Source of the DNA: a virus
DNA length: 64,000 bases
Strand: one strand, 5' to 3'
IMG/VR virus record: IMGVR_UViG_3300045988_174823
Shown: positions 4,805-62,682 of the stretch, one piece after another
Layout of the letters: every line of letters starts with the position of its first letter
Numbering within the stretch: position 1 is the first letter of the stretch
Notes under the pieces: model-generated
What the model was told of the DNA's origin: nothing
The model's database searches: none
The model's input: the letters and a program-made list of their open reading frames with translations, nothing else
Translations under genes and position numbers: made by a program

Positions 4805-5608
4805 TTACACTTCTACAGCGTCAAAGTCAATATCAAATTTCTTATATACAATGCGCAACTCGGGCACACCATTGATCGGCTTCTTCTTTTCATCAACACG
4901 AGCGTTAAGCGGCCAACGCTTCAAGATGATATCATGCGCACGTTGAACGCGCTCACGACGTTCGTACACATCCTGGAGACCGCCACCTTGTGTAGCTTCC
5001 TTGTTCATCTTACTCTGGAGCAAGAACCGTACGAATCGCGCATACACGATGCCGAGATACATACATTTTAACGAATAGTCGATATCACATTTCAACTCCA
5101 ACCGCTCATCAAAGTCCAACTCTAACGTGCGAAGACCCTTGAACACGATAAGGTGTGGAATACCGCCGTATTTGAAACGCGGACTAACGTCGATGCAATT
5201 CCAATCAAAAGCACTTTTGCCCATGGTGCCATATTCGAAGTCGGTTTTCATCACCTCTCGGTCGAATTCGTTGAAGAATTCAGCCAACTCTTCATGGGTT
5301 TTCAACGACAGTCCGCATTTGGCTTCACCGTCAATTGAGTAGAAGAAGTTGGCGATATCGTCATCCATCACCACAACGGGATACCCCTCGCGCAAGTAGG
5401 TATTCTTGCAGAAATTGACTACGTAGCTGTAGCCACGATTCGAGGCTGGAAGCACAATGAGGCGTTCGCGCTCATGCCCGGCTTCAACATATTTTTCAAC
5501 ATCCTCTTTTTCTACCACGATGTGGTAATCCACGCCGCCCTTTTTCAACAATCGAGTCGTGACGCATTTAGGGCGGTTTTTAGACACGACAAAGAATTGA
5601 CAGTTCAT
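4805..5608 (-). CDS. GT-A-like glycosyltransferase candidate (DxD type), paralog-like to 23500-24315
   Basis: FFVVSKNRP strand, then VVVMDDDIANFF (DxD) about 85 aa later, and a C-terminal GGGLQDVY...RWP motif shared with ORF 23500-24315. The ATG at 5608 is preferred over the TTG at 5638 (3 nt after the upstream stop). Confidence 0.45.
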   Translation of the reverse strand: MNCQFFVVSKNRPKCVTTRLLKKGGVDYHIVVEKEDVEKYVEAGHERERLIVLPASNRGYSYVVNFCKNTYLREGYPVVVMDDDIANFFYSIDGEAKCGLSLKTHEELAEFFNEFDREVMKTDFEYGTMGKSAFDWNCIDVSPRFKYGGIPHLIVFKGLRTLELDFDERLELKCDIDYSLKCMYLGIVYARFVRFLLQSKMNKEATQGGGLQDVYERRERVQRAHDIILKRWPLNARVDEKKKPINGVPELRIVYKKFDIDFDAVEV

Positions 5609-5610
5609 AC

Positions 5611-6291
5611 TCAAAATGGTAAGTCGCCCTCGTACCAAATTTCCTCAGGCGGGTTCTGTTCTATAAAACGTTGATAATTGTCCAGTGTACTTTCTAACGA
5701 TGGATAAAACCTCATGAACAACTCCCACTTAACGTCAAACATATCATCACACGATACGCGGCGTTTCATCAGTAGGCTTTCGCTATTATAGCACTGCACG
5801 CAGACCTGACGACGGCCTCGTAGTACGTACGAATAGGGAAAGTCGCGATAGTATTCCGCACCAGACGCTGTATTATACACCACATCATGGATAAACTGGT
5901 TGAACGGGTGTCCTGCGCCGAGAGGTGCCAGTAACGTATAACCGGGATTGCGGTGCATAAACTTCCGCAAATGATCGCGAAGCGCTTGTTCGGCGAAATT
6001 AAGGCCGTCATTCCCGAATTTGGCGCGTAAGTACGTATAGACGCTCTCATAATTACAGTCCTTGGAATGGGCCTGAAAATCGCTACAACGGACATTTTCT
6101 AACTCCAGGTCCAGACAATCCATGGCTATACCCAGAAAATTGTACAGAAGCCGCTGCTCTGAAACGCGCTTTGGGTCGCTATCTACAGTAAGCACCCGAA
6201 CGTCATATTCGGGTGCTACTAAAACGTGACAAGCACTCATCAGGAGATCACCCGCGTGTGGCTCGACACAGAGGTATTTTATTTTTCCCAT
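5611..6291 (-). CDS. LmbE/PIG-L-family deacetylase-like protein
   Basis: N-terminal VEPHAGDLLMSA (compare AHPDD, with His/Asp spacing conserved) and a later GAGHPFNQFIHD (compare HPDH). Overlaps the upstream gene by 13 nt. Confidence 0.4.
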   Translation of the reverse strand: MGKIKYLCVEPHAGDLLMSACHVLVAPEYDVRVLTVDSDPKRVSEQRLLYNFLGIAMDCLDLELENVRCSDFQAHSKDCNYESVYTYLRAKFGNDGLNFAEQALRDHLRKFMHRNPGYTLLAPLGAGHPFNQFIHDVVYNTASGAEYYRDFPYSYVLRGRRQVCVQCYNSESLLMKRRVSCDDMFDVKWELFMRFYPSLESTLDNYQRFIEQNPPEEIWYEGDLPF

Positions 6292-7238
6292 GGCCGTTTG
6301 TATATCTTCTCGACGCAGGGGCCGTCCTTCGATACGTCCTCAGCCATACGGCGAATTTCTGGCGTGATAGGCGGGAGCGTTTTCTTACCCATCTTATCAG
6401 GCAGGAAACCGACACGGACGCTGACATGTGTACACCCCTGACACGGACGGAACCGACGATCGTTGTTGTACAGCATCACGCGGGCAGCATGAAAGCGCGG
6501 ATGGTTCCAGAGGTCTTCGATAGGCATGTCGTGGATGTTGGCGATAGGGTACTCGCCGCGAAAGTCGTCGCAGCACAAGCACACCTGGCCGTTCCAACGC
6601 ACATCCAGTTCGCGGAACGGAAAAGTACATCGTTTGTTGTTGAACGAGTCGTCGAGCGGGAACGCTGCGCCACAGTGGTTAGCCAGACGACGCGTCATCT
6701 TGTTGGTATCGTCTTCGGCGATAGGCGGCAACAGACAGATACGGCGGCCCTGCTTGGGGTAGTAGTACGGAACGCCCGGTTCCAGCGTAACGACGTTGTA
6801 TTTCTCGATGTCGATTTTCTCGACGAAATTCCAGTCACCCTTAGCCGTATAGCAGTCCACCAGAATATCATTCATGCCGGCTTCAAAAAGACGGTCTAAA
6901 TATTCCGACGTATCCTTGGCGTGGTTCATACCGTACCCGTTGCTGTACATATGAAATACGGCTTTGGGCAGGTGTTTACGGAACGTAGCCACGATGTCGA
7001 TGAATGCGGGGTTGAGCGTCGGTTCGCCGTGCATAGCGAATACGAACTTACATTTCCACCCTACGCGGGCTACCTCTGAAGCGATACGCTCGGCGGTTTC
7101 AACGGTCATGAAATTCCACGGCTTAGTGCCTTTTTCGCGCATGCCGTGGAGACCGCAAAACGAACAACCCAGATTACACCCCTCCGTCGGTTCAATCTGC
7201 ATAGTGAACGGAGGGTCTTGTACGATTTTGTTTTTCAT
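6279..7238 (-). CDS. radical SAM enzyme with C-terminal Cys-rich (SPASM/twitch-like) domain
   Basis: EGCNLGCSFCG (CxxxCxxC) and HGEPTLNP. C-terminal CLCCDDFRG...RPCQGC. The ATG shares one nt with the stop of the MuF-like gene. Confidence 0.8.
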   Translation of the reverse strand: MKNKIVQDPPFTMQIEPTEGCNLGCSFCGLHGMREKGTKPWNFMTVETAERIASEVARVGWKCKFVFAMHGEPTLNPAFIDIVATFRKHLPKAVFHMYSNGYGMNHAKDTSEYLDRLFEAGMNDILVDCYTAKGDWNFVEKIDIEKYNVVTLEPGVPYYYPKQGRRICLLPPIAEDDTNKMTRRLANHCGAAFPLDDSFNNKRCTFPFRELDVRWNGQVCLCCDDFRGEYPIANIHDMPIEDLWNHPRFHAARVMLYNNDRRFRPCQGCTHVSVRVGFLPDKMGKKTLPPITPEIRRMAEDVSKDGPCVEKIYKRPWEK

Positions 7239-13913: not shown

Positions 13914-13914
13914 G

Positions 13915-17599: not shown

Positions 17600-17923
17600 T
17601 CAACACAACAGTTTCAAAATGTCGTTCCGCGCTGTTTTACGAATTATCAATGCCTGATGAAGAAGGTCGCCCCATACCGCTATCTGGTAACCATTCCACG
17701 TGTAATAATCCGTTTGATCGTCGTACGAGCCATTCCATTCACCGTCGTGGCGTATGTCAGCGACGAGGCGTTTAAAACGCGCTGTTTCTTCGGTGGTAAG
17801 GGGTGATATGAAAGTGCCGACGACTACTAATCGTGCGGCACTTGTGGAAAGATCATCGGCCAAAATCTGAAAGTCGATGCCCATAAAATCGCCCGTTTCC
17901 AACGGCGTGTGAAAGGTTATCAT
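17600..17923 (-). CDS. hypothetical protein
   Basis: 107-aa ORF, 4-nt overlap with the upstream gene. Confidence 0.5.
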   Translation of the reverse strand: MITFHTPLETGDFMGIDFQILADDLSTSAARLVVVGTFISPLTTEETARFKRLVADIRHDGEWNGSYDDQTDYYTWNGYQIAVWGDLLHQALIIRKTARNDILKLLC

Positions 17924-18930
17924 TTGCCTATCAATTTACAAGCTCTTGGTTCAAATGTAGAGCGTTGTTTACCTTCACCAATCTTCATTTTCCAGTACTT
18001 TTGATACTCACACAGCCACATTTCCACCTGGTGAAGTGATATCTCGCCCGACGGCGTGACGTAATACCCCGATTCAAGTTTGTGCCAGTGTAGGTACGGA
18101 AAATCGCCAAACGAAGATAACGCTGCCTGTGCCTCATCACGCAGGCGATATATACCGTCAATTTGACGCTTCAACGATGGGAACACCAACCGCAGCCCTA
18201 TGGACGCACCAGGCCCCACATTGGTATAGTCATCCTGGGTAAAGTGCATGAAACGGCGATAGGTATAGCGCGGTATGTAGGTGAAGTCTTGGTAGAATTC
18301 GTGAGCGATAAATGTCGCCGACGAAGGTAACTCCTGAAGGAACTTGATAATCTGCCCAGGATCGGTAGCCGTCAACACCGTCCGCATCAGTTTACCTAAC
18401 TTACGATGAAGCGTAGGCACAACCAAATGCGTGTAGCAGTAGTCGCGCGGTTTTCCAGGTGTGGCCATCGAATTGATGAGGTAGGCCGTGGTGTAGGGGT
18501 TGTTGCCTGTGGCACGGTACGACGTTATCATTTCCGCAAAGCGGTCCTCGTCGTATTGGTTATAATCCGGAATGCCCGCTCCCCAACCGTACTTTTCACG
18601 AGCATATTCAAACGTTTCAGGGTTGTTAAAATACCGGAACACCATCATCTTCCAAACCAGATTCGTCAGCGTTAATTCGTCATCCAGCAAGATATTACGT
18701 ATCTGCCACTGCGAATTACGATCCAGTTCACGATACACATTGGTGAATTTGTAATCGCGTAATATAGGATCATCAGTCCACGGACGCGGTTTCTGATCCA
18801 GGAACCGTCGCTTCCATATCATTTGGCGCTCAAACATCGTGCGGAAGAACTCGTGATAGTGTTCCTCGCTGACGTCAAGTGCGGCGTCAGGTAATTTATC
18901 AGCCCAAGGGTAATGATCAAATTTCGCCAT
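17920..18930 (-). CDS. aGPT-Pplase / 5-hmdU-DNA-kinase helical-domain-like protein (DNA base hypermodification candidate)
   Basis: 336-aa all-alpha-looking ORF. WKRRFLDQKPRPWTDDPILRDYKFTNVYRELDRNSQW matches my recollection of the conserved N-terminal motif of these families. Not verifiable here. Confidence 0.4.
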   Translation of the reverse strand: MAKFDHYPWADKLPDAALDVSEEHYHEFFRTMFERQMIWKRRFLDQKPRPWTDDPILRDYKFTNVYRELDRNSQWQIRNILLDDELTLTNLVWKMMVFRYFNNPETFEYAREKYGWGAGIPDYNQYDEDRFAEMITSYRATGNNPYTTAYLINSMATPGKPRDYCYTHLVVPTLHRKLGKLMRTVLTATDPGQIIKFLQELPSSATFIAHEFYQDFTYIPRYTYRRFMHFTQDDYTNVGPGASIGLRLVFPSLKRQIDGIYRLRDEAQAALSSFGDFPYLHWHKLESGYYVTPSGEISLHQVEMWLCEYQKYWKMKIGEGKQRSTFEPRACKLIGK

Positions 18931-21186: not shown

Positions 21187-22010
21187 TGCGCTATCTGGTT
21201 AGGGTTGGTATTCGAAGCAGCGATACCGCCGCGGGTTATATTAACCTTGCGACCATCCTCAAAACCCATCGACATAGCGTGGCTACTGCCAATATGCCCT
21301 GGGCGGGTGGAGCGTAAATTCTTGTAATTCTCAGCCACGTAGTCGTTCAATTTCTGGTCCGTACGCAGCACCAGCGCGTTCACTTGTACCTGAGCCTGGA
21401 GTTCGCGATCACGCTCTTCTTTAAGACGATTCTGAACGCCTTTAGCTGCCCCGGCCAGATACGACCTCAAGAACGTACCGCGGTGCATCCGCTTTTCGCC
21501 CGTAAATACCCGCATCAGCGCCTGCGAATCGTCATTGCAGTACTCCTCGTAACGTTTCAGTGCCAAACGGTACAACTGGCTCGCCAACACGTCAAACAGC
21601 CATTTTACGACCTCGATATTATGCGGCTCGCCAATAACGACATACTTTTGACGCATTTCACGCACCTCCTTGCCGTTACGGTTTACGCGACACTCACGAC
21701 GTTTACTAACTATCGCGTAGCAGAAATTGTACTTACAAATTCCGTACAGCAGGAATTGATCCCAGAATCCGCCACACTTACGGGACCAGCTGTCGCCGAG
21801 TTTTTCTTCAACGACGTTAGTCGCCTGCTCGTTATCGGCTACCGCGTCCAAGTCGGCCATCGAAAGATTGTACTGGGTGAGGAGATTCTGAATTTTAGCA
21901 GCGGCGTTGGCAGCTTCAGCCTCGGAATTGATGGCCTTTGCTCCTTCGTAGAGCCGCTGCAGTTTCTTCAGTTTCGAGAGAATTGAGTTGATGTCCTGTG
22001 TAGTTTCCAT
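21183..22010 (-). CDS. DUF2786-like phage protein
   Basis: N-terminal ILSKLKKLQRLYEGAKAINSEAEAANAAAKIQNLLTQYNL. The ATG at 22010 is preferred over the TTG at 22040, which lies inside the promoter-like repeat. Confidence 0.4.
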   Translation of the reverse strand: METTQDINSILSKLKKLQRLYEGAKAINSEAEAANAAAKIQNLLTQYNLSMADLDAVADNEQATNVVEEKLGDSWSRKCGGFWDQFLLYGICKYNFCYAIVSKRRECRVNRNGKEVREMRQKYVVIGEPHNIEVVKWLFDVLASQLYRLALKRYEEYCNDDSQALMRVFTGEKRMHRGTFLRSYLAGAAKGVQNRLKEERDRELQAQVQVNALVLRTDQKLNDYVAENYKNLRSTRPGHIGSSHAMSMGFEDGRKVNITRGGIAASNTNPNQIAQ

Positions 22011-22033
22011 AACCAATTTTGTTTTACGATTCC

Positions 22034-22092
22034 TTTCCAAGAGCGAAGGTACGGCGAAAAATCGGATTCTCCAAGAGAATTTGAAAAAATTT
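22034..22092 (-). promoter_or_regulatory. promoter-like repeat, copy P2
   Basis: Plus strand reads TTTCCAAGAGCGAAGGTACGGCGAAAAATCGGATTCTCCAAGAGAATTTGAAAAAATTTT. The sense-strand TACCTTCG box (22051-22044) lies 34 nt upstream of the ATG at 22010. Confidence 0.45.
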
Positions 22093-22383
22093 TCAACAAT
22101 CCATCACCAAATTACCTTTCAACTCCAATTCGTACAACCGTTCGGCATCAGGTTTGGCATAGCAGAATATCAGCTTACCACCACCTGCACACGCCAACGC
22201 TTGGCGATACACCTCCTTTATACGCGCGAATTCCTCACTGCGATAAAAATCATAATCGCTAACACACAACTCCCACCACCGCTCTTGATGAGACGCCCAG
22301 GCTATGACACCTGGGCGTTCGGCTTCGATACGCTTTACAGCGGCTAATAGTAACAAGGTATATTTCTGGCGATCGGCTTTCAT
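22093..22383 (-). CDS. hypothetical protein
   Basis: 96-aa ORF with an ATGA overlap with the upstream gene. Confidence 0.5.
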   Translation of the reverse strand: MKADRQKYTLLLLAAVKRIEAERPGVIAWASHQERWWELCVSDYDFYRSEEFARIKEVYRQALACAGGGKLIFCYAKPDAERLYELELKGNLVMDC

Positions 22384-22976
22384 AATGTAGCATCTTCCTC
22401 GCCGAGAGAGCGTGCCAACTCCACCAACAAACGGACGTGCACGTGTTCGTCGGCAACGATCTTATTAATGAGTTGGATAGCCAACGCGGAAGTTACAGTC
22501 GGCGTAGGGTTGTTGGCTTGAATACGCTGACTGAGTTTTTCATACGCAGAAATTGTGTCTTCTTCGGCGACGATATTAATCTGAACAGCTTCGGCTGCGC
22601 TTTTAGTCGTAATGTCCACTTTGGCTGCCGAAAATGCAGGTTGTGATACGTTACCCCCGATGTGGTTAATGAAGTCGCCTAATCGGTCGTAGTGCTTCAT
22701 CTCAGTAAGGGCGATGCCGAGGAACGTTTCGCCAATTTCGTCGAAGAGCATCCGCTGCTGCGTGTACTGGAGAATGGCCGTGAGTTCCGACGTGGGAGCC
22801 GTACCGACGTATGCCTTGTAGAACCACTCAGCCGGAACGCCGTCATCGGGTCTGGCCTTGGAAATATCAGGATAATCAACCGCGTTATTGGCGTAACGCA
22901 TCGACTCTACTAACGCGTCAGCCATCGCTTCGACGTTATCCTGTTTGGCGGGGTTATGTAAGAGAATCGTTTTCAT
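22380..22976 (-). CDS. ferritin-like di-metal carboxylate protein (Mn-catalase/CotJC-like four-helix bundle)
   Basis: Two E...ExxH pairs: SELTAILQY...LTEMKHYD and VAEEDTISAY...VADEHVHV. Confidence 0.6.
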   Translation of the reverse strand: MKTILLHNPAKQDNVEAMADALVESMRYANNAVDYPDISKARPDDGVPAEWFYKAYVGTAPTSELTAILQYTQQRMLFDEIGETFLGIALTEMKHYDRLGDFINHIGGNVSQPAFSAAKVDITTKSAAEAVQINIVAEEDTISAYEKLSQRIQANNPTPTVTSALAIQLINKIVADEHVHVRLLVELARSLGEEDATL

Positions 22977-22978
22977 GG

Positions 22979-23503
22979 CTATTTAATCGTTGAACCGAAC
23001 CCTCCGGCGTCGCGCATCGAAGGCGTCAACGTGTCGGTTTCCTCCACTTCAATATACGGCGCAGGGACGATGACCAACTGGGCTACAACGTCTCCTGCCT
23101 TAAATTCCTTGGTGCTCAGATTCACGTTTTGAGGCTTCATCCCCGCAACCTCACCGAAGACGTTGGAAAGTAATCCACAAACGCTCTTGAAGAACCTGTG
23201 AACCAGCGTAGGCAAATGCCACGTCTTCTTGTAACGAGCACGTATCGTGCCGCGGTAGCCAGGGTCGATAACCCCTGGAGCATTACACATCACCAGGTCC
23301 ATTTTTGAACAACGCGAATTCGGGACCAGCAACCCGCAATACCCCCTGGGAATTTCGACGGCGATGCCGGTATCGTATTCGATGTAATCTTCAGTTTCCT
23401 TTACGGTTACAGCCACGAGGTCCAGGCCGTTATCCTCACCACCAGGATGAGCATACGTCGGCAGTACGGCTTCAGGGTGTACTTTCTTGAATTTTACGGT
23501 CAT
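22979..23503 (-). CDS. dut: dUTPase (trimeric type) with a ~30-aa insertion between motifs III and IV
   Basis: Motifs NGLDLVAV, VPNSRCSK, GVIDPGYRGTI, GDVVAQLV and RDAGGFGSTIK. Confidence 0.85.
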   Translation of the reverse strand: MTVKFKKVHPEAVLPTYAHPGGEDNGLDLVAVTVKETEDYIEYDTGIAVEIPRGYCGLLVPNSRCSKMDLVMCNAPGVIDPGYRGTIRARYKKTWHLPTLVHRFFKSVCGLLSNVFGEVAGMKPQNVNLSTKEFKAGDVVAQLVIVPAPYIEVEETDTLTPSMRDAGGFGSTIK

Positions 23504-24315
23504 TTCTTGTATCCTTTTAAGTGTAATTTGACTTCTATCATTTCACGATCCTTCATCTCGCCACCCCAGTTGGTACACTTCTTGGTGCGGAGTGTGATGT
23601 ATTCAGGGAACGTTTCCCTTAAACGTTGTGACTCGGCGTTGGAGTTCTCGATAGTTCGGTACACAGAACAACCGCCAGCAGCGTTGGCTCCTGTCATTTT
23701 ATCGAACGAATACTGATACGAAACCACGTTATCCAACCCAGCACGACGCAGGCCACAAGCCAAGGCAAAATCCTCTTTTATAGGCCAATCACTGAACCTA
23801 ACAGGCTGGCTCAGATATTGCTCAATATTCAGCCCCCAAATGGAGAAGAACCGCCCATTAATTTGTACGTCGTGCGTCTTATCGCGGTTGAATGGCCTAT
23901 ACGAAAGAGCCGCCACGGCGTAGGTGTCCAACTGCTCCGCTACCCAGTCAAACATCATCGAATAGATGCATTCCTGGGCCTCGACGGTGAAATTGTCGTT
24001 GTTTACCACTACAGGGGTCTTGGCATCGTCTAAACGCAGTGAGAAAGACACGTTATCGTCTAAGAAAAAGACTCCGCCAAATCCCCTATCAGCGGCCTCT
24101 ACAACAATGTAGTCTCGTATGTCGCCTACACCGCGACATACCGTACTGTATTCCTCGATGGCGGCAACCTTACCGCCCCAGTTGCGTTGGTGAGCGGCCA
24201 ATTCGCCAGGGTGACAGAATACCGTTACGCGGCGACGGGCCTCAGGCGTTAGGCGCTGGAGGGTTTTCTGGCGGTCAATACGACCACGGGTGAATAGTGC
24301 TATCAGAGTTTTCAT
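23500..24315 (-). CDS. GT-A-like glycosyltransferase candidate, paralog-like to 4805-5608
   Basis: IALFTRGRIDR strand, VFFLDDNVSF (DxD-like), and a C-terminal AAGGCSVYRT...TFPEY motif shared with ORF 4805-5608. ATGA overlap with dut. Confidence 0.45.
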   Translation of the reverse strand: MKTLIALFTRGRIDRQKTLQRLTPEARRRVTVFCHPGELAAHQRNWGGKVAAIEEYSTVCRGVGDIRDYIVVEAADRGFGGVFFLDDNVSFSLRLDDAKTPVVVNNDNFTVEAQECIYSMMFDWVAEQLDTYAVAALSYRPFNRDKTHDVQINGRFFSIWGLNIEQYLSQPVRFSDWPIKEDFALACGLRRAGLDNVVSYQYSFDKMTGANAAGGCSVYRTIENSNAESQRLRETFPEYITLRTKKCTNWGGEMKDREMIEVKLHLKGYKK

Positions 24316-24334
24316 ATCACTTAAAACGATGGCG

Positions 24335-27052
24335 CTAACCTAACATATCGAATTTAAATCCGGTAGTCATACGCGACGCCGCCAAGTCGGCCAGCCAAAA
24401 CGACGACGAAATATCATCGTGACTACCGACACTCTCCAGCCCTTTTTCGGTAAAGGCAACGGAACCGAGGTCTTGGAAGATGAGGTCCTTGACCTGCTGA
24501 GAATAAACGTTACCTATCGGGATGTGGATTTTGCCGCGCTCGAACAACGTCGAAAGGTGCGGCCATCCGGTCTTCAGGTCGTACTTATCAATTCCCGTAG
24601 TGTGACCAATAACGGGCATACCCTCGGTGTCGGCTGTCTCGACGAATATCTGTTGGAATGTGTTATTCTCCATCACGATAAGGTCAGGCCGGAAGCGGGA
24701 GTTGATACGGCGCAGAACGTTCATCTGCTCGAAAAACTTGGCACCTTTTTCACGGTAGAGGTGCAACAGCCAGCGCTCGTCGGTCAATTCGTCAATACCC
24801 CATACGCTAAATACGGCGTAGTCGGCGCCGACGTTGGCTGAAATAGCGAAGTCGCACCCGACAACCACTTTAGAGAACTTAATGGGGAATTCTTCGCGCG
24901 AATCAACCAACGTGTAATTTTCCATCCGCAGTAGCGAACGCGTGAGGATTTCCATCGGGAAGATTGACGACTCGTTGGTAATCGGGCGACAAAGGTTCTC
25001 ACGCGAGAAGATGATTGAACCCTGGGTCTCCTTTTTATCCATCAGGTCCTTAAACGACCAACGCTGGGGCCAAAGGATTCGTCCGTCGGGGAAGATGGCT
25101 GGATACTCGATAACGAACCAACCGTTCTTGGTCTTCAGGTCGCCGTAAAGGTCTTCGGCGTGGAACGGCGTACCGACGACGATAATCTGGCCACCAGGTA
25201 CGAGCATATTCATGATTACGGAGTGGAAATAGTCGGTGGACTTATTTCGTTGGAGACTGGAGTAAATGACGTTGTCCTTCAAGCCGTCATCTACGATAAT
25301 CCAATACGGGTGAGCACCACGCACCGACGATCCAAAACCTTTTCCCGTCAAACGTGCTCCGTTACGGCACACGATATTGGTAGCCGACCAGTTGTTGGCT
25401 GTCGATTGGGGAAACAGCCGTTCCTTCAATATCTCGTTTTCCTCAATAGTGCCTTTCAGAATCTCCAAAAGGTCCACACTCTGTTGTAACGAGAACGAGA
25501 ACAAGAATCCGCGATTTGATGAAGCTGCCGCAGGTCGTTTCGAGTAGCGGGTGGTTGACGGCTTCTTGTAACGGTATAGCTGCCACGCGGCGTAGGCGTT
25601 GGAGAAATAGAACGAGTTGTGCGTAACCGTACCGTCACCCAGCACGAAGCGGTGGTCGCCGTCGGTGGTGATAGATATGTAGTCACCTTCACCCGCGGGC
25701 GTGATCTTCAACGACGATACCACCGTAGGGTGTACGCCGTCGATAGTGCCCCAGTCCTTGTGTGACGTCTTGGCGGCCCAGTCGGTTTGGACCTTTTTAC
25801 GAGCGATCTTTACTGGGATGCGGTCCAGTTCACCAGAAATAGTCACGCACCACGACGAATAGTCGCGGCCTAACGCTTTACAATACCGCGTTCCACCACC
25901 CATTCGGGTACAGAAGCCAAGGCTGTCGGCCAAGTTCTTCACGTCACACACCAACTGGTAGTTCGTATTACCGAAGTGATAGCCGCCCTGCCAATAGTTA
26001 CCGTCGGAATCGATCAACCCAGCCAACACCTGAAGACGAACTTCTTCGCTGTTGACGAGGTACTGCTCCGGAATGTGCTTATTGTAGAGCAGGTTGTAAC
26101 CCTTGAGCATCCTTTCCAGCGGGTTACGCTTACCGCGGCCACGAACGTCAATTCCAAGTGTCACTACCATACCATTTTGGCCATAGTGAAGCCCCAAGCG
26201 CTCGGCGTAAGAGTGTAAGTACTCACACACTTCAGGGTCGGCGGTGGTGATCTTCTGGTTGTTGGAGTTGCCGTCGCCTAACCAGTACCCAAGAAAATAT
26301 GGTTCCAACCCCACGGGCCGCGTGGGGTACTGCACTGCCACCTTGAAACCGCGGTAACGTTCCTTCACCCAGTTCGGGGTCTTGCTTAAAAGCGTCGGAA
26401 TATCAATATCCACTATCCGCTTCGACGCTGTAGCGATGGAACCGTTGCGGTCCTTCTCGATCAGCGTACAAATGTGGCGTGAGTTGACGGTGTGGCTATC
26501 ACCGCGCGACTGGTCGATACGGTACATCATCGAATCGTGGCCACGGCGCGTAGCAACCACGCGGCGGGGCTTAGAGTCGATGCCCATCAACAAGTCGCCA
26601 ACCACAACGTCTTCGACCTTTTTGATAGTTCCGTCGTACATTCGGACGGGGGTTCCGACGGCTTCGCACTTTCCGTGGTCACGCGCTGCGTTGATACACA
26701 ATTTCTTGTGGTTATGGACTAATTCACCCCATTCCAGGTGGTGCCACGACAGCTGGAAGTCAGGGATAACAGAGGTGATGAAATACGTCAAGTTGGCGCA
26801 TCGTAGGGTATCTTCTACGACGGCCGAAACGTTTTCTTCGTAGCGGGGTTTGAAGTCAATCGACGCGTCACCCGTGTACATAATACGATATGTGTCCTCC
26901 AACAGAGCGTCGAATATCGTATCAACGTCGTGTATATCGCCACTCATCATCTCATTCAACCCACGCTCGTCCATACCCTCGATTATTTCATCAACGAGGT
27001 CTAAACAAGCCAAACGGTGCGTAACCGAGGGTGCTGTAATCTGAGGTATCAT
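24335..27052 (-). CDS. terL: terminase large subunit interrupted by an intein in the Walker A motif
   Basis: Removing residues 129-479 gives NAARDHGK-SFYFS (P-loop). The remaining ~550 aa have a terminase-like layout. Confidence 0.8.
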   Translation of the reverse strand: MIPQITAPSVTHRLACLDLVDEIIEGMDERGLNEMMSGDIHDVDTIFDALLEDTYRIMYTGDASIDFKPRYEENVSAVVEDTLRCANLTYFITSVIPDFQLSWHHLEWGELVHNHKKLCINAARDHGKCEAVGTPVRMYDGTIKKVEDVVVGDLLMGIDSKPRRVVATRRGHDSMMYRIDQSRGDSHTVNSRHICTLIEKDRNGSIATASKRIVDIDIPTLLSKTPNWVKERYRGFKVAVQYPTRPVGLEPYFLGYWLGDGNSNNQKITTADPEVCEYLHSYAERLGLHYGQNGMVVTLGIDVRGRGKRNPLERMLKGYNLLYNKHIPEQYLVNSEEVRLQVLAGLIDSDGNYWQGGYHFGNTNYQLVCDVKNLADSLGFCTRMGGGTRYCKALGRDYSSWCVTISGELDRIPVKIARKKVQTDWAAKTSHKDWGTIDGVHPTVVSSLKITPAGEGDYISITTDGDHRFVLGDGTVTHNSFYFSNAYAAWQLYRYKKPSTTRYSKRPAAASSNRGFLFSFSLQQSVDLLEILKGTIEENEILKERLFPQSTANNWSATNIVCRNGARLTGKGFGSSVRGAHPYWIIVDDGLKDNVIYSSLQRNKSTDYFHSVIMNMLVPGGQIIVVGTPFHAEDLYGDLKTKNGWFVIEYPAIFPDGRILWPQRWSFKDLMDKKETQGSIIFSRENLCRPITNESSIFPMEILTRSLLRMENYTLVDSREEFPIKFSKVVVGCDFAISANVGADYAVFSVWGIDELTDERWLLHLYREKGAKFFEQMNVLRRINSRFRPDLIVMENNTFQQIFVETADTEGMPVIGHTTGIDKYDLKTGWPHLSTLFERGKIHIPIGNVYSQQVKDLIFQDLGSVAFTEKGLESVGSHDDISSSFWLADLAASRMTTGFKFDMLG
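25616..26668 (-). mobile_element. intein (351 aa) with LAGLIDADG homing endonuclease
   Basis: Starts with Cys (tgc, 26668-26666) and ends VTHN (aac, 25618-25616), followed by +1 Ser. Contains LGYWLGDGNS and LAGLIDSDGNY. Confidence 0.8.
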
Positions 27053-27070
27053 AGCTTCGGTATTAATAGC

Positions 27071-27106
27071 AACACCCAGCAGGGGTCTCGATTCCCTCTG
27101 GGTGTT
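27071..27106 (-). other. strong hairpin in the gap upstream of terL
   Basis: AACACCCAG-C-AGGG, loop GTCTCGATT, CCCT-CTGGGTGTT: 13 bp with a 1-nt bulge. No U-tract follows on the sense strand. Confidence 0.5.
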
Positions 27107-27125
27107 ACCGGGCCTACAACAAAAC

Positions 27126-27602
27126 TCACTTCTTCAAATTTAACACCTTGGCGATGTAACGTTCCATTCCCAGGGTCTCGCGCTGATACACCTCTTCAGG
27201 GTATTCTTTCAAGAGTACGGAGTTGTAACTCTCAATAGCTGCCTCAAGCAACGTAGTCAGCTGTATAATCTTGGCCTTATGAACCGCTGCACGGTCGTCG
27301 GCGTTAAAAGTGAAGCAGAATTTTGTTTTGTTGGCGTCCATTATATCGACGTAACCGAACGTCTGAAGTGTTTCCAAAAGATCCAACGCCTTACGGTGTG
27401 ACAGCGTCGTCTTCTTTACAACCTCTGTACGGGTGAAAGTGCGTTGAGATCTCATCTCTTGCTCCAAAGCGTCTTTGCACAAAATACGAAGCAATTCGAG
27501 TGCTTTGGAAAAGGCCAATTGGCGGTTTTCGTCCTTTTCGGTGTACTGTTTTGCCGCTTCTACCTCCTCGGGTGTTTGAGCGACACGTGTGTTATCTGCC
27601 AT
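27126..27602 (-). CDS. hypothetical protein (small terminase candidate by position only)
   Basis: 158-aa ORF directly upstream of terL. No diagnostic motif. Confidence 0.3.
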   Translation of the reverse strand: MADNTRVAQTPEEVEAAKQYTEKDENRQLAFSKALELLRILCKDALEQEMRSQRTFTRTEVVKKTTLSHRKALDLLETLQTFGYVDIMDANKTKFCFTFNADDRAAVHKAKIIQLTTLLEAAIESYNSVLLKEYPEEVYQRETLGMERYIAKVLNLKK

Positions 27603-31526: not shown

Positions 31527-31539
31527 CGTGTTAAGGATT

Positions 31540-31803
31540 TTACCACTGGACCATCATCCGGAAATAGGCGAAATATTTCCTTGTGCGGTTCAGGCCCACA
31601 GTTTCGGTTTTGTAAACTTCATCTATCGTTACTTCGTAACCTTGTTTCTTCAAACGCTGAGCAACGTATTTCAACCTGTTGCCGTTGGCGTCTTCGTTGA
31701 AGAATTCGCGTTTCCCCCTGGCGATAGCGCGTTGGATTCCAAACTCTACGTCAGCCAATGCCAATTCGTAAATCCAATTCCCCAGCCAAAAGATCTTCGG
31801 CAA
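31540..31803 (-). CDS. hypothetical protein (start uncertain, TTG in track)
   Basis: 87-aa ORF overlapping the upstream ORF by 53 nt. Confidence 0.35.
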   Translation of the reverse strand: MPKIFWLGNWIYELALADVEFGIQRAIARGKREFFNEDANGNRLKYVAQRLKKQGYEVTIDEVYKTETVGLNRTRKYFAYFRMMVQW

Positions 31804-31954
31804 TTTCGTAATTCAGGTGGCGCTGGGCCAAGGTGGTAAGTTTACGAGCCTGGGCGGCGGTGAGTATGGGACGGAATTGCTTGTTATCGAGTTGTACGCT
31901 GGGTGTTTGCTGTTGGCGTTCCATTTCGTGATTTTTGAGGTTTTCAACACTCAT
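31751..31954 (-). CDS. hypothetical protein, first gene after the non-coding hub
   Basis: 67-aa ORF with its ATG at 31954. Confidence 0.45.
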   Translation of the reverse strand: MSVENLKNHEMERQQQTPSVQLDNKQFRPILTAAQARKLTTLAQRHLNYEIAEDLLAGELDLRIGIG

Positions 31955-31977
31955 AACGTTGGCGATGTCTTACGCTG

Positions 31978-32074: not shown

Positions 32075-32084
32075 AGGCCCCAAA

Positions 32085-32680: not shown

Positions 32681-32705
32681 TCTACAGACGCAAATAGCCT
32701 ACGTG

Positions 32706-56313: not shown

Positions 56314-56961
56314 TTAAATTATATCGTTTTGTAAGTCATTAATGGCTCCTACCCATACGTACATCAGGCGTTCTTGCTCACAAATATCCGCCGATACACA
56401 CGTACTTTGTAACGTTGAAACCGCCCTACGATAGCTATCCTTACAATACGGTAATAAATCCAAAGGCCAAGAGCGGTTTCCCATCCCCACCTCACGATGC
56501 AAGAAATACAACAACGCCATCCAATCGGCCACCTTTACAATCGCGTGAGCAACGTCGTAATACGGTGCATCCTTTGAAAGCGTTTTGGCAATTACCGAAT
56601 CGTCTCCGAATTCGGCCATTACCTGGTGCGCAACAAACTCGTCCAAAACGTTACGCAGTTCCGACCCGTTATAAGCGTTATATTTAAGTTCGTGGGTGAT
56701 ATCGCGACGCAGAATAGCCTCGTCGAAGTCATGCATCAGCGCCATCTTCAGCGTCTGATACTTGAACGTAGCCACCGTATTATTATCGTCCCCTCCAGGC
56801 CAGAGATAGTCCAGCAGGCACATCGTGAAGACCGATACCTTGTACGAATGTTGCGAAACGCTTTCCTGCTGGTGGCGGTCATACTCCAACCACTGCTTGA
56901 TGTTATCCAACCGCGCAAGATGATCGCGGTTGAAGAGTTTGATTAAATCATCCTTTTGCAT
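56314..56961 (-). CDS. HD-domain 5'-deoxynucleotidase (YfbR-like) candidate
   Basis: ESVSQHSYKVSVFTMCLL and MALMHDFDEAILRRDITHELKY parallel YfbR ENVAEHS... and ...HDASEVLTGDLPTPVKY. Confidence 0.55.
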   Translation of the reverse strand: MQKDDLIKLFNRDHLARLDNIKQWLEYDRHQQESVSQHSYKVSVFTMCLLDYLWPGGDDNNTVATFKYQTLKMALMHDFDEAILRRDITHELKYNAYNGSELRNVLDEFVAHQVMAEFGDDSVIAKTLSKDAPYYDVAHAIVKVADWMALLYFLHREVGMGNRSWPLDLLPYCKDSYRRAVSTLQSTCVSADICEQERLMYVWVGAINDLQNDII

Positions 56962-61464: not shown

Positions 61465-62682
61465 TTACAGGAGTTTATTGATTTCTGCGTTAGAAAACCT
61501 TGCCGCGAAGAAATTGCGAGCCAACATCAGGTAGTCCCACTTTTCTTCAACGGATACGGTCCCTGTGATACGGTCCATCAGCACAAAGCACGACTTCAGC
61601 AACGAATCACGGTCATCCTTATAGGCACCAATATTTCGCTTGTAGAAGACGTACACCTTCAACATCTGGTAAACTACCCAGAAATAGGTTGATTTCTCAA
61701 ATACGTAGTTCTCAAACCCGGCCTCGTCTTCCAAGATATTGCCTTTTGCGTATCGCACCGCCAAACGATTTATCATCTCTTCCATAAAGGCCGTTATTTC
61801 ACACAGGCGGTTTACCGGAACCTCCGATTCGAACTTAAAGTCCATCATATACGACATCGCTCCCTCGTAATACAAGCTGCGGCGCGTATTATTGGACACG
61901 AAAAGTTCGCTCATCTGCTCGGCGATATTATTCCATTCGTAGATATGGAGCGACTGCGAGTTGTGAGTCTGAACACCTAACTCTACCCCCAAGCAGAGGG
62001 ACATTACCTCCGTCAGGAACGAGAACTGAAAGATGTTCGTTGGTAAGCCCCAGTGGAGATCATTCGAACGGTTCTGGACCGTGGTAACGAGTTTCCCATC
62101 GCGGATTTTCAACATCACCATATCGTTACACGGCAAGTCCTTCGATTTCACGCCGAGGTCAAACTTAGGATTCCAAATCGACATCACAACCTGACGTGTT
62201 TCCGGGTCAGTGCTCAGCAGGCGAATGGCTTCCTTCACCTGATCCAGGCCCGGGTCCATCGACTCACCCTCGGACGAAATACCCCAATGACGCAAACGCC
62301 AGCCGTAGGGAGCGTGGAACGTAACGCCATTATCGGAAAAATCGACCATCTTGCCGTTGAAGATCTTCAGGAACTCGACGTCCTTACGGCCCGTAACTAT
62401 CCACATAGCTTCAGCCAGCAGGAAGAAGATGTTGATGTTGCGGGCATAGCCGCCTACACAGCGGCGATACGGGTTGTTGATTATTGTCTTGACATCGAGC
62501 AGTTCGCGTACCTTACCAGCACGAGAATCCTGAAGCGGGAGCGTCGTCATCATCGTGCGGTTGATATACGGATACACCTCGGCGAACGAACCGCGCGGAT
62601 CGGTAAATACCACACGCCGCCGATAGTCAAACTCAAAACGGCTAATGCCTGTTTCGGTCTGGGAAATTGATTCTTGCTTCAT
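61465..62682 (-). CDS. thymidylate synthase-family enzyme (ThyA or dUMP hydroxymethylase) with ~130-aa C-terminal extension
   Basis: Motifs TRQVVMSIWNPKFDL, DLPCNDMVMLKI, VQNRSNDLHWGLPTNIFQFSFL and SLHIYE. Confidence 0.8.
   Translation of the reverse strand: MKQESISQTETGISRFEFDYRRRVVFTDPRGSFAEVYPYINRTMMTTLPLQDSRAGKVRELLDVKTIINNPYRRCVGGYARNINIFFLLAEAMWIVTGRKDVEFLKIFNGKMVDFSDNGVTFHAPYGWRLRHWGISSEGESMDPGLDQVKEAIRLLSTDPETRQVVMSIWNPKFDLGVKSKDLPCNDMVMLKIRDGKLVTTVQNRSNDLHWGLPTNIFQFSFLTEVMSLCLGVELGVQTHNSQSLHIYEWNNIAEQMSELFVSNNTRRSLYYEGAMSYMMDFKFESEVPVNRLCEITAFMEEMINRLAVRYAKGNILEDEAGFENYVFEKSTYFWVVYQMLKVYVFYKRNIGAYKDDRDSLLKSCFVLMDRITGTVSVEEKWDYLMLARNFFAARFSNAEINKLL

What the first reader, a model, noticed from the sequence alone, without database searches (positions are those of the whole stretch)
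22380..24315. GT-A-like protein, dUTPase and di-iron four-helix-bundle protein in one overlapping operon behind terL
ORF 23500-24315 is GT-A-like. It shares the DxD region and the C-terminal GG..VY/FP motif with ORF 4805-5608. Its stop overlaps the dut start as ATGA. The dut gene is followed after 2 nt by a ferritin-like protein with two E...ExxH pairs. That gene in turn overlaps the next ORF as ATGA. Coupling a nucleotide-pool enzyme to a glycosyltransferase and a potential di-iron oxidase or hydroxylase suggests a base-modification module rather than housekeeping genes.
Basis: partly seen in the sequence, partly recalled or inferred. Interest (0 to 1): 0.65.

Follow-up and report, generated by a model that had tools for sequence, protein, structure and literature searches.

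The report
Gut phage hydroxymethyluracil–sugar DNA-modification genes plus ferritin
In a common human-gut phage of Bacteroidales, a DNA-sugar-transferase gene and a dUTPase gene fit a pathway that swaps thymine for sugar-decorated hydroxymethyluracil, but the neighbouring "di-iron" gene is a host-derived bacterioferritin-like protein, most likely for iron/oxygen protection rather than base chemistry.

Summary
Four translationally coupled minus-strand genes follow terL: a TAGT/JGT-type GT-A glycosyltransferase (23500-24315), a dUTPase (22979-23503), a ferritin-like protein with E..ExxH twice (22380-22976) and a 96-aa ORF (22093-22383).

The window also encodes:
- an SPO1 gp29-like dUMP hydroxymethylase;
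- an HD 5'-deoxynucleotidase;
- a clade-1 aGPT-Pplase-like protein, which Pfam names HMUDK_hel;
- a radical SAM/SPASM enzyme next to a second TAGT paralog.

This phage therefore very probably makes 5-hydroxymethyluracil DNA. I infer that it glycosylates that base, as in base J.

TAGT1 is an accessory cassette: 6 of 19 near-identical relatives lack it. The conserved core is dut-ferritin-orf96.

The ferritin-like protein is bacterioferritin-type, with the ferroxidase Glu/His set plus the Tyr and Met typical of bacterioferritins. Four observations separate it from base modification:
- it has stand-alone chromosomal homologs in Bacteroidales;
- a related Bacteroides phage (DAC19) has it without any hypermodification gene;
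- in other relatives it sits beside class II or class III ribonucleotide reductases;
- ferritin-like genes of this general kind were already reported in gut phages as oxidative-stress genes.

No P-loop 5-hmdU DNA kinase or clade-2 amino-acid:DNA transferase was found in the sequence I could see.

The parts
24335..27052 (-). Large terminase (905 aa) interrupted by a Hint/LAGLIDADG intein. It is the upstream boundary of the operon.
   Evidence: phrog_38 E 4e-53. Pfam Hom_end_hint, Hom_end and LAGLIDADG_3. Intein-less 563-aa versions occur in relatives.
23500..24315 (-). TAGT1: a TET-associated / base-J-glucosyltransferase-type GT-A glycosyltransferase (271 aa). It is an accessory cassette.
   Evidence: PF20691 E 1e-13 (52.2 bits against a cut-off of 27.5) and phrog_842 E 1e-27. 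AlphaFold pLDDT 79; Foldseek hits are GT-A enzymes such as 3cgx, AvpGT, COLGALT1, K4CP and TarS at E about 1e-5. Motifs TRGR, DDN and KEDF are conserved. Present in 13 and absent in 6 of 19 relatives with at least 91% identical ferritin-like protein. The indel runs cleanly from the terL stop to the dut start.
22979..23503 (-). Trimeric-type dUTPase (174 aa) with a 33-aa insertion after motif III and an atypical motif II (PNSR instead of PRSG).
   Evidence: PF00692 45 bits against a cut-off of 22; phrog_135 E 1e-30; NCBIfam dut 73.7 bits, below the equivalog cut-off of 102.55. Alignment with canonical phage dUTPases shows motifs I, III, IV and V conserved. A dut gene lies directly upstream of the ferritin-like gene in all but one of the clade loci where that side is readable.
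22380..22976 (-). Bacterioferritin-like di-iron four-helix-bundle protein (198 aa) with an N-terminal extension of about 60 aa.
   Evidence: PF00210 33.5 bits against a cut-off of 24.5. Invariant or nearly invariant residues are E64, Y71, E92, M93, H95, E138, E177 and H180. AlphaFold pLDDT 91.8. Foldseek top hits are bacterioferritins, the Mn catalase KatB and a Dps-like protein. A profile search of the PDB gives a double-ferritin 6e-19, mini-bacterioferritin 5e-15 and Desulfovibrio bacterioferritin 3e-14.
22093..22383 (-). Conserved 96-aa ORF of unknown function, translationally coupled to the ferritin-like gene (ATGA).
   Evidence: No Pfam, PHROG or NCBIfam match. Conserved throughout the phage clade, with a class II RNR inserted between it and the ferritin-like gene in 23 loci. 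Only a weak PDB profile hit, to potempin A at E 0.005.
17920..18930 (-). HMUDK_hel / clade-1 aGPT-Pplase-like helical protein (336 aa). It is not the P-loop kinase itself.
   Evidence: PF18723 E 4.5e-52. No Walker A motif. Homolog of PaMx11 gp50 (E 8e-19), not of the kinase gp49. The homolog in Bacillus phage Nachito is annotated as aGPT-pyrophosphorylase clade 1.
61465..62682 (-). Thymidylate-synthase-family enzyme (405 aa), most likely a dUMP hydroxymethylase that supplies 5-hm-dUMP.
   Evidence: PF00303 E 2.5e-23. It keeps Asn in the LPTN motif, where CMP/dCMP hydroxymethylases have Asp. The best phage hits are SPO1 gp29, SP8 and SP82G (41-48% identity, E about 1e-44) and M6-/SP10-like hypermodifying phages.
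56314..56961 (-). HD-domain YfbR-like 5'-deoxynucleotidase (215 aa), a candidate for depleting dTMP or other dNMPs.
   Evidence: PF12917 E 7e-11 and PF13023. PaMx11 has an HD protein next to its hydroxymethylase.
6279..7238 (-). Radical SAM / SPASM-twitch enzyme (319 aa), clustered with TAGT2.
   Evidence: PF04055 E 1e-15 and PF13186 E 3e-12. In relatives L047, L058 and L067 a homolog lies between terL and (TAGT-)dut-ferritin.
5611..6291 (-). 226-aa ORF of unknown function between the radical SAM gene and TAGT2.
   Evidence: No family match. Conserved in position in relatives.
4805..5608 (-). TAGT2: the second, very divergent TAGT-family glycosyltransferase (267 aa from the ATG; the ORF extends to a TTG at 5638).
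   Evidence: PF20691 E 1.4e-13 and phrog_842 E 3e-17. A DDD motif is present. Conserved in relatives.

Best explanation
The window comes from a roughly 98-100 kb lytic phage of human-gut Bacteroidales. By gene content it is "Gratiaviridae"-like, and it is related to Bacteroides phage DAC19.

Proposed pathway for the DNA:
1. The dUTPase converts dUTP to dUMP and keeps dUTP out of DNA.
2. An SPO1 gp29-like hydroxymethylase converts dUMP to 5-hm-dUMP, so the phage builds its DNA with 5-hydroxymethyluracil. An HD nucleotidase may remove competing dTMP.
3. After replication, JGT/TAGT-type GT-A glycosyltransferases transfer a sugar from an NDP-sugar onto the hydroxymethyl group, giving a base-J-like product. 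TAGT2, clustered with a radical SAM/SPASM enzyme, is the conserved copy. TAGT1, behind terL, is a strain-variable accessory copy. It may add a second or alternative sugar, much as T-even phages vary their glucosylation.

The ferritin-like protein is not part of this chemistry. It is a bacterioferritin-type ferroxidase captured from the Bacteroidales host lineage. It is kept as a core gene in the phage's nucleotide-metabolism operon (dut, and in relatives class II or class III ribonucleotide reductases and radical SAM enzymes). It most likely consumes O2/H2O2 and sequesters Fe(II) during infection of an anaerobe, which would protect oxygen-labile enzymes and replicating DNA.

Shown here: gene identities, folds, conserved residues, synteny and the distribution of the genes. 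Inferred: hmU content of the DNA, glycosylation of hmU, the sugar donor, ferroxidase activity and the protective role.
For: - GT identity and fold. Pyle et al. (bioRxiv 10.1101/2023.12.21.572611) show that phage GT-A GTs resemble T. cruzi JGT, carry R...DDD...EDY/F motifs and co-occur with thymidylate-synthase homologs about as often as with 5mYOX.
- hmU supply: the TS homolog keeps the uracil-specifying Asn and is closest to the hydroxymethylases of the hmU phages SPO1, SP8 and SP82G. An HD nucleotidase, the dUTPase and an HMUDK_hel protein typical of thymidine-hypermodifying phages are also present.
- Recurrent linkage: TAGT lies directly after HMUDK_hel in L031-33 and in the cultured phage PhiJL001. 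The arrangement terL-rSAM-TAGT-dut-ferritin occurs in L047 and L067.
- TAGT1 is accessory.
- Ferritin-like protein: ferroxidase ligands plus a Tyr and a Met at the positions of bacterioferritin Tyr25 and Met52. The model is confident. The nearest structures and sequences are bacterioferritins, mini-bacterioferritin and a double-ferritin protein.
- Cellular origin: 34 of the 36 genome hits lie in Bacteroidota genomes or MAGs. In 32 of them the flanking genes were examined, and these are ordinary chromosomal genes such as ribosomal protein S9, enolase, nitroreductase and flavodoxin. RefSeq names one homolog 'ferritin family protein'.
- Independence from hypermodification: the gene is present in DAC19, which lacks every hypermodification gene tested. 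It lies next to a B12-dependent RNR in 23 loci and next to NrdD/NrdG in 2 loci.
- Literature: ferritin-like genes (Mn catalase and DPS families) in Bacteroides gut phages are interpreted as ROS tolerance genes (PMC8008677).
Against: - No nucleoside chemistry is available, so hmU and its glycosylation are inferred from gene content alone.
- The hydroxymethylase gene is 38 kb from TAGT1.
- TAGT1 has DDN rather than DDD, and TAGT2 lacks a clear EDY/F motif in the alignment.
- TAGT2 and the radical SAM gene lie inside the structural gene block, so a protein or envelope target cannot be excluded.
- The HMUDK_hel protein implies a phosphorylated hmU intermediate, yet no P-loop kinase or clade-2 transferase was found in 64 kb plus about 13 kb of flanks. 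The real pathway may differ from simple glycosylation.
- The ferritin-like gene is tightly and almost universally coupled to dut within the clade, which a generic stress gene would not require.
- Structure search cannot separate a ferroxidase from a Mn catalase.
Confidence: 0.6

Rival explanations
1. The ferritin-like protein, perhaps together with the coupled 96-aa protein, is a working part of nucleotide or base modification. It would be a di-iron oxidase/hydroxylase that oxidises the hydroxymethyl or sugar group, or a nucleotide. This is what the first reader proposed.
For: Tight translational coupling dut-ferritin-orf96, conserved in about 70 loci. In some relatives rSAM and TAGT lie in the same operon (L047, L067). 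The family has a conserved N-terminal extension absent from classical bacterioferritins.
Against: The active-site set is that of bacterioferritin ferroxidase centres, including the Tyr and the heme-ligand Met positions. No hydroxylase-type relative appears in the structure or sequence searches. Homologs are stand-alone chromosomal genes in Bacteroidales with unrelated neighbours. DAC19 keeps the gene without any hydroxymethylase, TAGT, HMUDK_hel or rSAM gene. O2-dependent chemistry is unlikely to be obligatory in a strict anaerobe.
Confidence: 0.07
2. The ferritin-like protein serves the phage's metallo- and radical enzymes directly. It would act as an iron donor or buffer for the [4Fe-4S] radical SAM enzyme and NrdG, or as a local O2 scavenger for the glycyl-radical and B12 reductases. 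It would not provide general ROS tolerance.
For: It lies directly adjacent to an RTPR-type class II RNR (23 loci), to NrdD/NrdG (L067, L068) and to radical SAM genes (L047, L058, L067).
Against: The window phage has no RNR next to it, and none was detected in the 64 kb. Class II and III RNRs need no di-iron subunit. The gene shows no R2 features: the Tyr is at the bacterioferritin position and there are no R2 hits. DAC19 context shows none of these enzymes nearby.
Confidence: 0.15
3. The TAGT-family enzymes do not act on DNA. They would glycosylate virion proteins or host envelope components, and the hmU pathway would end in a non-sugar modification or in plain hmU.
For: TAGT2 and rSAM/SPASM lie between portal-proximal and capsid/tail genes. 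SPASM enzymes are usually peptide or protein maturases. Benler et al. proposed envelope modification for a glycosyltransferase in Gratiaviridae. TAGT1 is dispensable.
Against: Pfam names the family after its association with TET/JBP, the PHROG family carries the T-even beta-glucosyl-HMC alpha-glucosyltransferase annotation, and the phage GT-A GTs tested by Pyle et al. act on DNA and resemble JGT. To my own knowledge, every characterised member acts on hydroxymethyl-pyrimidine DNA or on its sugar. The genome makes the required hydroxymethyl acceptor. TAGT sits next to HMUDK_hel in L031-33 and PhiJL001.
Confidence: 0.15

Closest known systems
Base J glucosyltransferase (JGT) and phage TET/5mYOX- or ThyS-associated GT-A glycosyltransferases (Pfam TAGT PF20691; Pyle et al., Cell Rep 2024 / bioRxiv 2023)
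   Same: Same Pfam family above threshold, GT-A fold, and the Arg / DD / EDF motifs in TAGT1. The same genome holds an enzyme that creates a 5-hydroxymethyl pyrimidine.
   Different: The hydroxymethyl base here is made before replication, by a dUMP hydroxymethylase rather than by a dioxygenase. The third Asp of DDD is Asn in TAGT1. TAGT1 is strain-variable. The product has not been determined. Glycosylated hmU made by this route has, as far as I found, not been shown chemically in a phage.
Thymidine hypermodification clusters of phages M6, PaMx11, ViI, SP10 and PhiW-14 (Lee et al. 2018, 2021)
   Same: dUMP hydroxymethylase, an HD protein and an HMUDK_hel / clade-1 aGPT-Pplase-like protein (homolog of PaMx11 gp50). 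A radical SAM enzyme is also present.
   Different: No P-loop 5-hmdU DNA kinase (PaMx11 gp49 type) and no clade-2 amino-acid:DNA transferase (gp46 type) was found in the visible sequence. No PLP enzyme was found. Instead there are two TAGT glycosyltransferases. The radical SAM enzyme is SPASM/twitch-type rather than SPL-like.
Alphaproteobacteria phage PhiJL001 (AY576273)
   Same: It is the only cultured phage found here with an HMUDK_hel homolog (12274-13131) next to a TAGT homolog (13637-14362).
   Different: Only 24-30% identity, an unrelated phage, and no ferritin-like gene seen in that neighbourhood. Its DNA chemistry is, to my knowledge, uncharacterised.
Bacterioferritin, mini-bacterioferritin (PDB 9qq4; Commun Biol 2026) and the double-ferritin-fold protein deposited as bacterioferritin (PDB 9viw)
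   Same: Four-helix bundle. The di-iron ligands E, ExxH, E, ExxH. A Tyr seven residues after the first Glu. An EM(K/D)H motif with the heme-ligand Met.
   Different: An extra N-terminal segment of about 60 aa with an invariant YP motif, reminiscent of the N-terminal arm of small Mn catalases such as KatB. Oligomeric state, heme binding and iron storage are unknown. The family is restricted to Bacteroidota and their phages.
Ferritin-like genes (Mn catalase and DPS families) of 'Gratiaviridae' and other gut phages (Benler et al., Microbiome 2021)
   Same: Gut Bacteroides phages with DnaE, SbcCD, RecA and SF1 helicase genes that carry ferritin-like diiron-carboxylate genes, interpreted as oxidative-stress tolerance genes. 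A close homolog in nr is named 'Mn catalase-like protein'.
   Different: Here the protein fails to match Pfam Mn_catalase and is closer to bacterioferritins. Its fixed position next to dut and RNR genes and its cellular Bacteroidales homologs were not described there, as far as I read.

Membership tests
TAGT / JGT-type GT-A DNA glycosyltransferase (PF20691) | Profile match above the Pfam gathering score | tested here: met
   TAGT1 52.2 bits and TAGT2 51.7 bits against a cut-off of 27.5. phrog_842 E 1e-27 and 3e-17.
TAGT / JGT-type GT-A DNA glycosyltransferase (PF20691) | GT-A (nucleotide-diphospho-sugar transferase) fold | tested here: met
   TAGT1 AlphaFold model has pLDDT 79 and pTM 0.81. 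There are 95 PDB hits at E <= 1e-3, and those listed are GT-A glycosyltransferases or related nucleotidyltransferases of the same fold class. TM is only 0.42-0.50. TAGT2 was not modelled.
TAGT / JGT-type GT-A DNA glycosyltransferase (PF20691) | Active-site motifs R...DDD...EDY/F (Pyle et al.) | tested here: inconclusive
   TAGT1 has TRGR, DDN (third Asp replaced by Asn) and KEDF. TAGT2 has DDD but no clear EDY/F in the alignment.
TAGT / JGT-type GT-A DNA glycosyltransferase (PF20691) | The same genome holds an enzyme that makes 5-hydroxymethyl pyrimidine | tested here: met
   SPO1 gp29-like TS homolog at 61465-62682. No TET/JBP domain was found in the window.
TAGT / JGT-type GT-A DNA glycosyltransferase (PF20691) | Sugar transfer to hmU/hmC in DNA | not testable with these tools
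   Needs an enzyme assay or nucleoside mass spectrometry.
Trimeric dUTPase (PF00692) | Five conserved motifs and a profile match | tested here: met
   Pfam 45 bits against a cut-off of 22. Motifs I (GLDL), III (GVIDPGYRG), IV (AQL) and V (RDAGGFGST) are present. Motif II is PNSR instead of PRSG. There is a 33-aa insertion. The NCBIfam equivalog cut-off is not reached (73.7 against 102.55).
Bacterioferritin-type ferritin-like protein (PF00210) | Four-helix bundle with the di-iron ligands E, ExxH, E, ExxH | tested here: met
   PF00210 33.5 bits against a cut-off of 24.5. The ligands are invariant or nearly invariant in 42 sequences. The model has pLDDT 91.8. Bacterioferritins are the top structural and profile hits.
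Bacterioferritin-type ferritin-like protein (PF00210) | Bacterioferritin hallmarks: a Tyr near the centre and a Met heme ligand in EMxH | tested here: met
   Y71 is invariant and M93 is at least 90% conserved. They align with EMKH/EMDH/EMRH of solved bacterioferritins. The residue numbering in E. coli Bfr is from my own knowledge.
Bacterioferritin-type ferritin-like protein (PF00210) | Cage assembly (12- or 24-mer), heme binding and iron storage | not testable with these tools
   Only a monomer model was made.
Manganese catalase (PF05067) | Profile match to the Mn_catalase family | tested here: not met
   No PF05067 hit at E <= 0.1. The structural resemblance to KatB (TM 0.63, including the N-terminal segment) is real but no better than to bacterioferritins. 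The profile E-value to KatB is 5e-8, against 1e-14 to 1e-19 for bacterioferritin-type proteins.
Class I ribonucleotide reductase small subunit (R2) | R2 fold and size, with the radical Tyr after the first ExxH | tested here: not met
   198 aa. No R2 among the top PDB hits. The Tyr is at the bacterioferritin position. The adjacent RNRs in relatives are class II (RTPR, E 5e-66) or class III.
5-hmdU DNA kinase (P-loop 5-HMUDK) | P-loop kinase domain with Walker A, homologous to M6 gp54 / PaMx11 gp49 | tested here: not met
   The window protein 17920-18930 matches only the helical HMUDK_hel model, has no Walker A motif and is homologous to PaMx11 gp50, not gp49. No gp49 homolog was found in the window or in any fetched locus. 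About 20-25 kb of the genome was not seen.
Kinase/AADT-type thymidine hypermodification cluster (Lee et al.) | dUMP hydroxymethylase + 5-HMUDK + clade-2 aGPT-Pplase (AADT) | tested here: not met
   The hydroxymethylase is present. No kinase and no gp46-like AADT was detected. Only the clade-1-like helical protein is present.

The most novel reading that the evidence does not exclude
A widespread lineage of human-gut Bacteroidales phages carries base-J-like, sugar-decorated hydroxymethyluracil DNA. The base would be made before replication by a dUMP hydroxymethylase and then glycosylated by JGT-type enzymes. A radical SAM/SPASM enzyme and a clade-1 aGPT-Pplase-like protein would tailor it, without the canonical P-loop kinase/AADT route. 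Strain-level gain and loss of the second glycosyltransferase (TAGT1) would create different DNA glyco-types within one phage species.
Probability: 0.3. Interest if true: 0.65.

Novelty: new variant of a known kind. Interest (0 to 1): 0.45.

Why it matters
If the inferred chemistry is right, one of the commoner uncultured phage lineages of the human gut has thymine replaced by a glycosylated hydroxymethyluracil. Three consequences would follow.
- Such DNA sequences, amplifies and restricts differently, which could bias virome surveys.
- It would influence which Bacteroidales defence systems can see the phage.
- It would be a bacterial-virus counterpart of trypanosome base J, made by a different upstream route.

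The natural TAGT1-plus and TAGT1-minus variants are a ready-made experiment. The ferritin-like gene is of more modest interest. It is a clear case of a host ferritin-family gene fixed in a phage nucleotide-metabolism operon. That supports the idea that phages of anaerobes manage iron and oxygen during infection.

Tried and rejected
- Megablast of the locus against GenBank phages found nothing. tblastn found only distant TAGT hits and the DAC-type Bacteroides phages for the ferritin-like protein.
- PHROGs and NCBIfam gave nothing useful for the ferritin-like protein, orf96 or the small ORFs near HMUDK_hel.
- I first read the PF18723 hit as 'the 5-hmdU DNA kinase'. I rejected this after finding no Walker A motif, homology to PaMx11 gp50 rather than the kinase gp49, and Table 1 of Lee et al. 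2021.
- I considered that the ferritin-like protein might be a minimal RNR R2-like subunit, because an RNR follows it in many relatives. I rejected this because those RNRs are B12-dependent or glycyl-radical enzymes and the protein has bacterioferritin features, not R2 features.
- The search for related loci with the 42-sequence alignment failed because no block was conserved enough. A closer 8-sequence alignment worked.
- The Iyer et al. 2013 paper, which defined TAGT, 5-HMUDK and aGPT-Pplase, is not held. Statements about it rest on citing papers and on my own knowledge.
- The sigma-70 promoter and terminator scan found nothing above chance in 21800-27300. It is in any case unsuited to Bacteroidales promoters.
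- The search for a P-loop kinase in the flanks obtainable beyond the window (about 2.8 kb and 10 kb) was negative.

Full report
**Observation.** Almost all genes in the window are on the minus strand.
- terL (24335-27052, with a Hint/LAGLIDADG intein) is followed after 19 nt by ORF 23500-24315.
- The stop of that ORF overlaps the start of a dUTPase gene (22979-23503) as ATGA.
- Two nucleotides after the dut stop, a 198-aa ORF begins (22380-22976).
- The stop of that ORF overlaps the start of a 96-aa ORF (22093-22383) as ATGA.
- ORF 23500-24315 and the distant ORF 4805-5608 both match Pfam TAGT (TET-associated glycosyltransferase) above the gathering score, and both match phrog_842.
- The two are not similar by pairwise BLASTP. 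In a family alignment, however, the DD of the DxD region, the GG..VY motif and the FP/WP proline are invariant across both.
- The 198-aa protein matches Pfam Ferritin and, just above its cut-off, Rubrerythrin. Its E64...E92xxH95 and E138...E177xxH180 are invariant or nearly so in 42 homologs.

**What kind of genome this is.**
- There is no close relative among GenBank phages.
- The exact or near-exact proteins occur on hundreds of human-gut metagenome contigs of 97-101 kb.
- The window encodes a DnaE-type polymerase, SbcCD, RecA, a UvrD-like helicase, a portal protein and a FEN-like exonuclease.
- This gene set matches the description of the Bacteroides/Parabacteroides-infecting 'Gratiaviridae' (PMC8008677).
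- The cultured Bacteroides thetaiotaomicron phage DAC19 shares terL (E 8e-111), portal, PolIII-alpha, UvrD and exonuclease homologs.

**Base-modification genes elsewhere in the window.**
- *Thymidylate-synthase homolog.* A 405-aa homolog (61465-62682) keeps the Asn of the LP(F/T)N motif. In the printed alignment the CMP hydroxymethylase MilA has Asp at that position, and from my own knowledge so does the T4 dCMP hydroxymethylase. Its best phage matches are SPO1 gene 29, SP8 and SP82G, the classical hmU phages, at 41-48% identity and E about 1e-44. The M6-, PaMx11- and SP10-like hypermodifying phages follow. It is therefore most likely a dUMP hydroxymethylase.
- *HD 5'-deoxynucleotidase.* This gene lies at 56314-56961. 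PaMx11 has an HD protein next to its hydroxymethylase.
- *HMUDK_hel protein.* The protein at 17920-18930 matches Pfam HMUDK_hel at E 4.5e-52. It is not the kinase. It has no Walker A motif. It is homologous to PaMx11 gp50, not to the P-loop kinase gp49. Lee et al. list gp49 as the 5-hmdU DNA kinase and gp46 as the amino-acid:DNA transferase. The window protein corresponds to the second, dispensable 'aGPT-Pplase' paralog, and Nachito annotates its homolog as clade 1.
- *What is missing.* No homolog of gp49 or gp46 exists in the window, in about 13 kb of extra flank, or in any related locus fetched.
- *Radical SAM cluster.* A radical SAM/SPASM enzyme (6279-7238), an unknown 226-aa ORF and TAGT2 form a conserved cluster inside the structural region.

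**The glycosyltransferase.**
- TAGT1 gave an AlphaFold model with pLDDT 79 and pTM 0.81. Its PDB neighbours are GT-A nucleotide-sugar transferases at E about 1e-5, with modest TM scores of 0.42-0.50.
- It carries TRGR, DDN and KEDF, close to the R...DDD...EDY/F signature that Pyle et al. describe for phage GT-A DNA glycosyltransferases and T. cruzi JGT.
- Those authors also found such GTs next to thymidylate-synthase homologs about as often as next to dioxygenases.
- TAGT1 is not a fixed part of the operon. Among 19 relatives whose ferritin-like protein is at least 91% identical, 13 have it and 6 go straight from terL to dut. The difference is a clean cassette between the terL stop and the first codons of dut.
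- In more distant relatives a TAGT1-type gene sits after a radical SAM gene (L047, L067) or directly after HMUDK_hel (L031-33). The cultured phage PhiJL001 also has this second arrangement.
- The GT thus travels with hmU-pathway genes, but at this position it is accessory.

**The dUTPase.**
- Motifs I, III, IV and V are intact. Motif II reads PNSR. A 33-aa insertion follows motif III.
- A dut gene immediately precedes the ferritin-like gene in all but one of the clade loci where that side can be read. In some relatives it is canonical, and in others it carries N-terminal fusions.
- In hmU phages a dUTPase feeds the hydroxymethylase, and in phage phi-e it also hydrolyses dTTP (established knowledge, not tested here). 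That role is plausible here but is inferred.

**The ferritin-like protein.**
- *Model.* The AlphaFold model is confident (pLDDT 91.8).
- *Structural neighbours.* Foldseek places bacterioferritins, the small Mn catalase KatB and a Dps-like protein at similar scores.
- *Sequence neighbours.* A family profile hits a double-ferritin-fold protein deposited as bacterioferritin (9viw, 6e-19), mini-bacterioferritin (9qq4, 5e-15) and Desulfovibrio bacterioferritin (3e-14). KatB is much weaker at 5e-8. Pfam Mn_catalase is not matched.
- *Conserved residues.* Besides the six ligands, Y71 and M93 are conserved. M93 sits in an EMKH motif that aligns with EMKH/EMDH/EMRH of solved bacterioferritins, where the Met ligates heme.
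- *Family size.* The family is small: 147 representatives in 1.8 billion cluster representatives.
- *Cellular homologs.* In species-representative genomes, 34 of the 36 hits lie in Bacteroidota genomes or MAGs (Alistipes, Bacteroides, Coprobacter, Tannerellaceae, Rikenellaceae, Flavobacteriales), on contigs of up to 1.1 Mb here and up to 2 Mb in the protein collection. The other two hits are much weaker (28-29% identity, Oscillospiraceae and Bacilli MAGs).
- *Their context.* Apart from phage contigs binned into MAGs (L093 by synteny, plus two terminase-flanked loci), none of the window's phage genes lies within 6 kb. In 32 loci the flanking genes were examined. They are ordinary cellular genes such as ribosomal protein S9, enolase, MFS transporters, nitroreductases and flavodoxins. 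RefSeq calls one homolog 'ferritin family protein'.
- *DAC19.* This phage carries the gene but has no hydroxymethylase, HMUDK_hel, TAGT, radical SAM or orf96 homolog at phmmer E <= 1e-3.
- *RNR neighbours.* Within the clade, an RTPR-type B12-dependent RNR is inserted precisely between the ferritin-like gene and orf96 in 23 loci. NrdD/NrdG flank the gene in two loci.
- *Prior report.* Benler et al. had already reported Mn-catalase- and DPS-like genes in Gratiaviridae and more than 200 other gut phages. They proposed that these raise the oxygen tolerance of the anaerobic host.

Taken together, the gene is a host-derived bacterioferritin-type protein. It is fixed in the phage's nucleotide-metabolism operon and is independent of the hypermodification genes. 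Nothing points to a nucleobase oxidase.

**Synthesis.**
- The locus is a mosaic, not a single module.
- The GT and the dUTPase fit a pathway that makes hmU DNA and, by inference, glycosylates it in the manner of base J.
- The ferritin-like protein and its 96-aa partner are a separate, conserved unit. Its most likely role is iron/oxygen management.
- The main uncertainties are the actual DNA chemistry, the role of the HMUDK_hel protein and the radical SAM enzyme when no kinase or AADT is detectable, and whether TAGT2/rSAM act on DNA at all.

Noticed in passing
window 24335-27052: terL carries a Hint + LAGLIDADG homing-endonuclease intein (905 aa). Close relatives have intein-less 563-aa terL. 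Intein presence is independent of TAGT1 presence: L018 has no intein but has TAGT1, and L019 has the intein but no TAGT1.
   Followed up: partly
window 7238-9268: A 676-aa protein of unknown function holds a second intein (Intein_splicing/PT-HINT plus a DUF559 endonuclease). An intein-less 310-aa version exists in relative L082. The gene sits directly upstream of the radical SAM gene, and DAC19 has a homolog of the extein.
   Followed up: partly
window 56977-61463: The DnaE-type PolIII-alpha is split into two ORFs, the PHP/N-terminal part at 59760-61463 and the finger/HhH part at 56977-59079. A 166-aa SegE-like GIY-YIG homing-endonuclease ORF (59272-59772) lies between them. In DAC19 the polymerase is one 1274-aa ORF.
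   Followed up: partly
window 22979-23503; L031 8654-9358; L054 8902-9990: dUTPases of this phage clade are structurally variable. The window's lineage has a 33-aa insertion after motif III. L031 has an N-terminal extension of about 90 aa, and L054 one of about 215 aa. This recalls the variable, signalling-competent region of staphylococcal phage dUTPases.
   Followed up: no
window 22093-22383: A profile of the conserved 96-aa ORF gives a weak hit (E 0.005) to Tannerella forsythia potempin A, a Bacteroidota protease inhibitor. This is too weak to interpret.
   Followed up: partly
L039 8519-9781: In one relative, a 420-aa protein with crAss001_48-related and Tad2-like (Thoeris anti-defence) domains is inserted between dut and the ferritin-like gene. 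The terL-to-ferritin interval is therefore a hotspot for accessory cassettes (TAGT, rSAM, anti-defence, homing endonuclease in L040).
   Followed up: no
window 10395-12224: Two long ORFs overlap on opposite strands (522 aa on + and 595 aa on -) in a stretch of raised G+C (0.54) and strong AT skew. There is no family match for the minus-strand product. It may be a repetitive structural protein.
   Followed up: no
window 49045-49803: A 252-aa ORF with NUMOD3 motifs is probably another free-standing homing endonuclease. Together with the two inteins and the GIY-YIG gene, this genome is unusually rich in selfish elements.
   Followed up: no
window 31500-32700: This region has only short plus-strand ORFs in an otherwise minus-strand genome. 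G+C skew changes sign around 30-34 kb. It may be a non-coding or regulatory region, or the replication origin.
   Followed up: no
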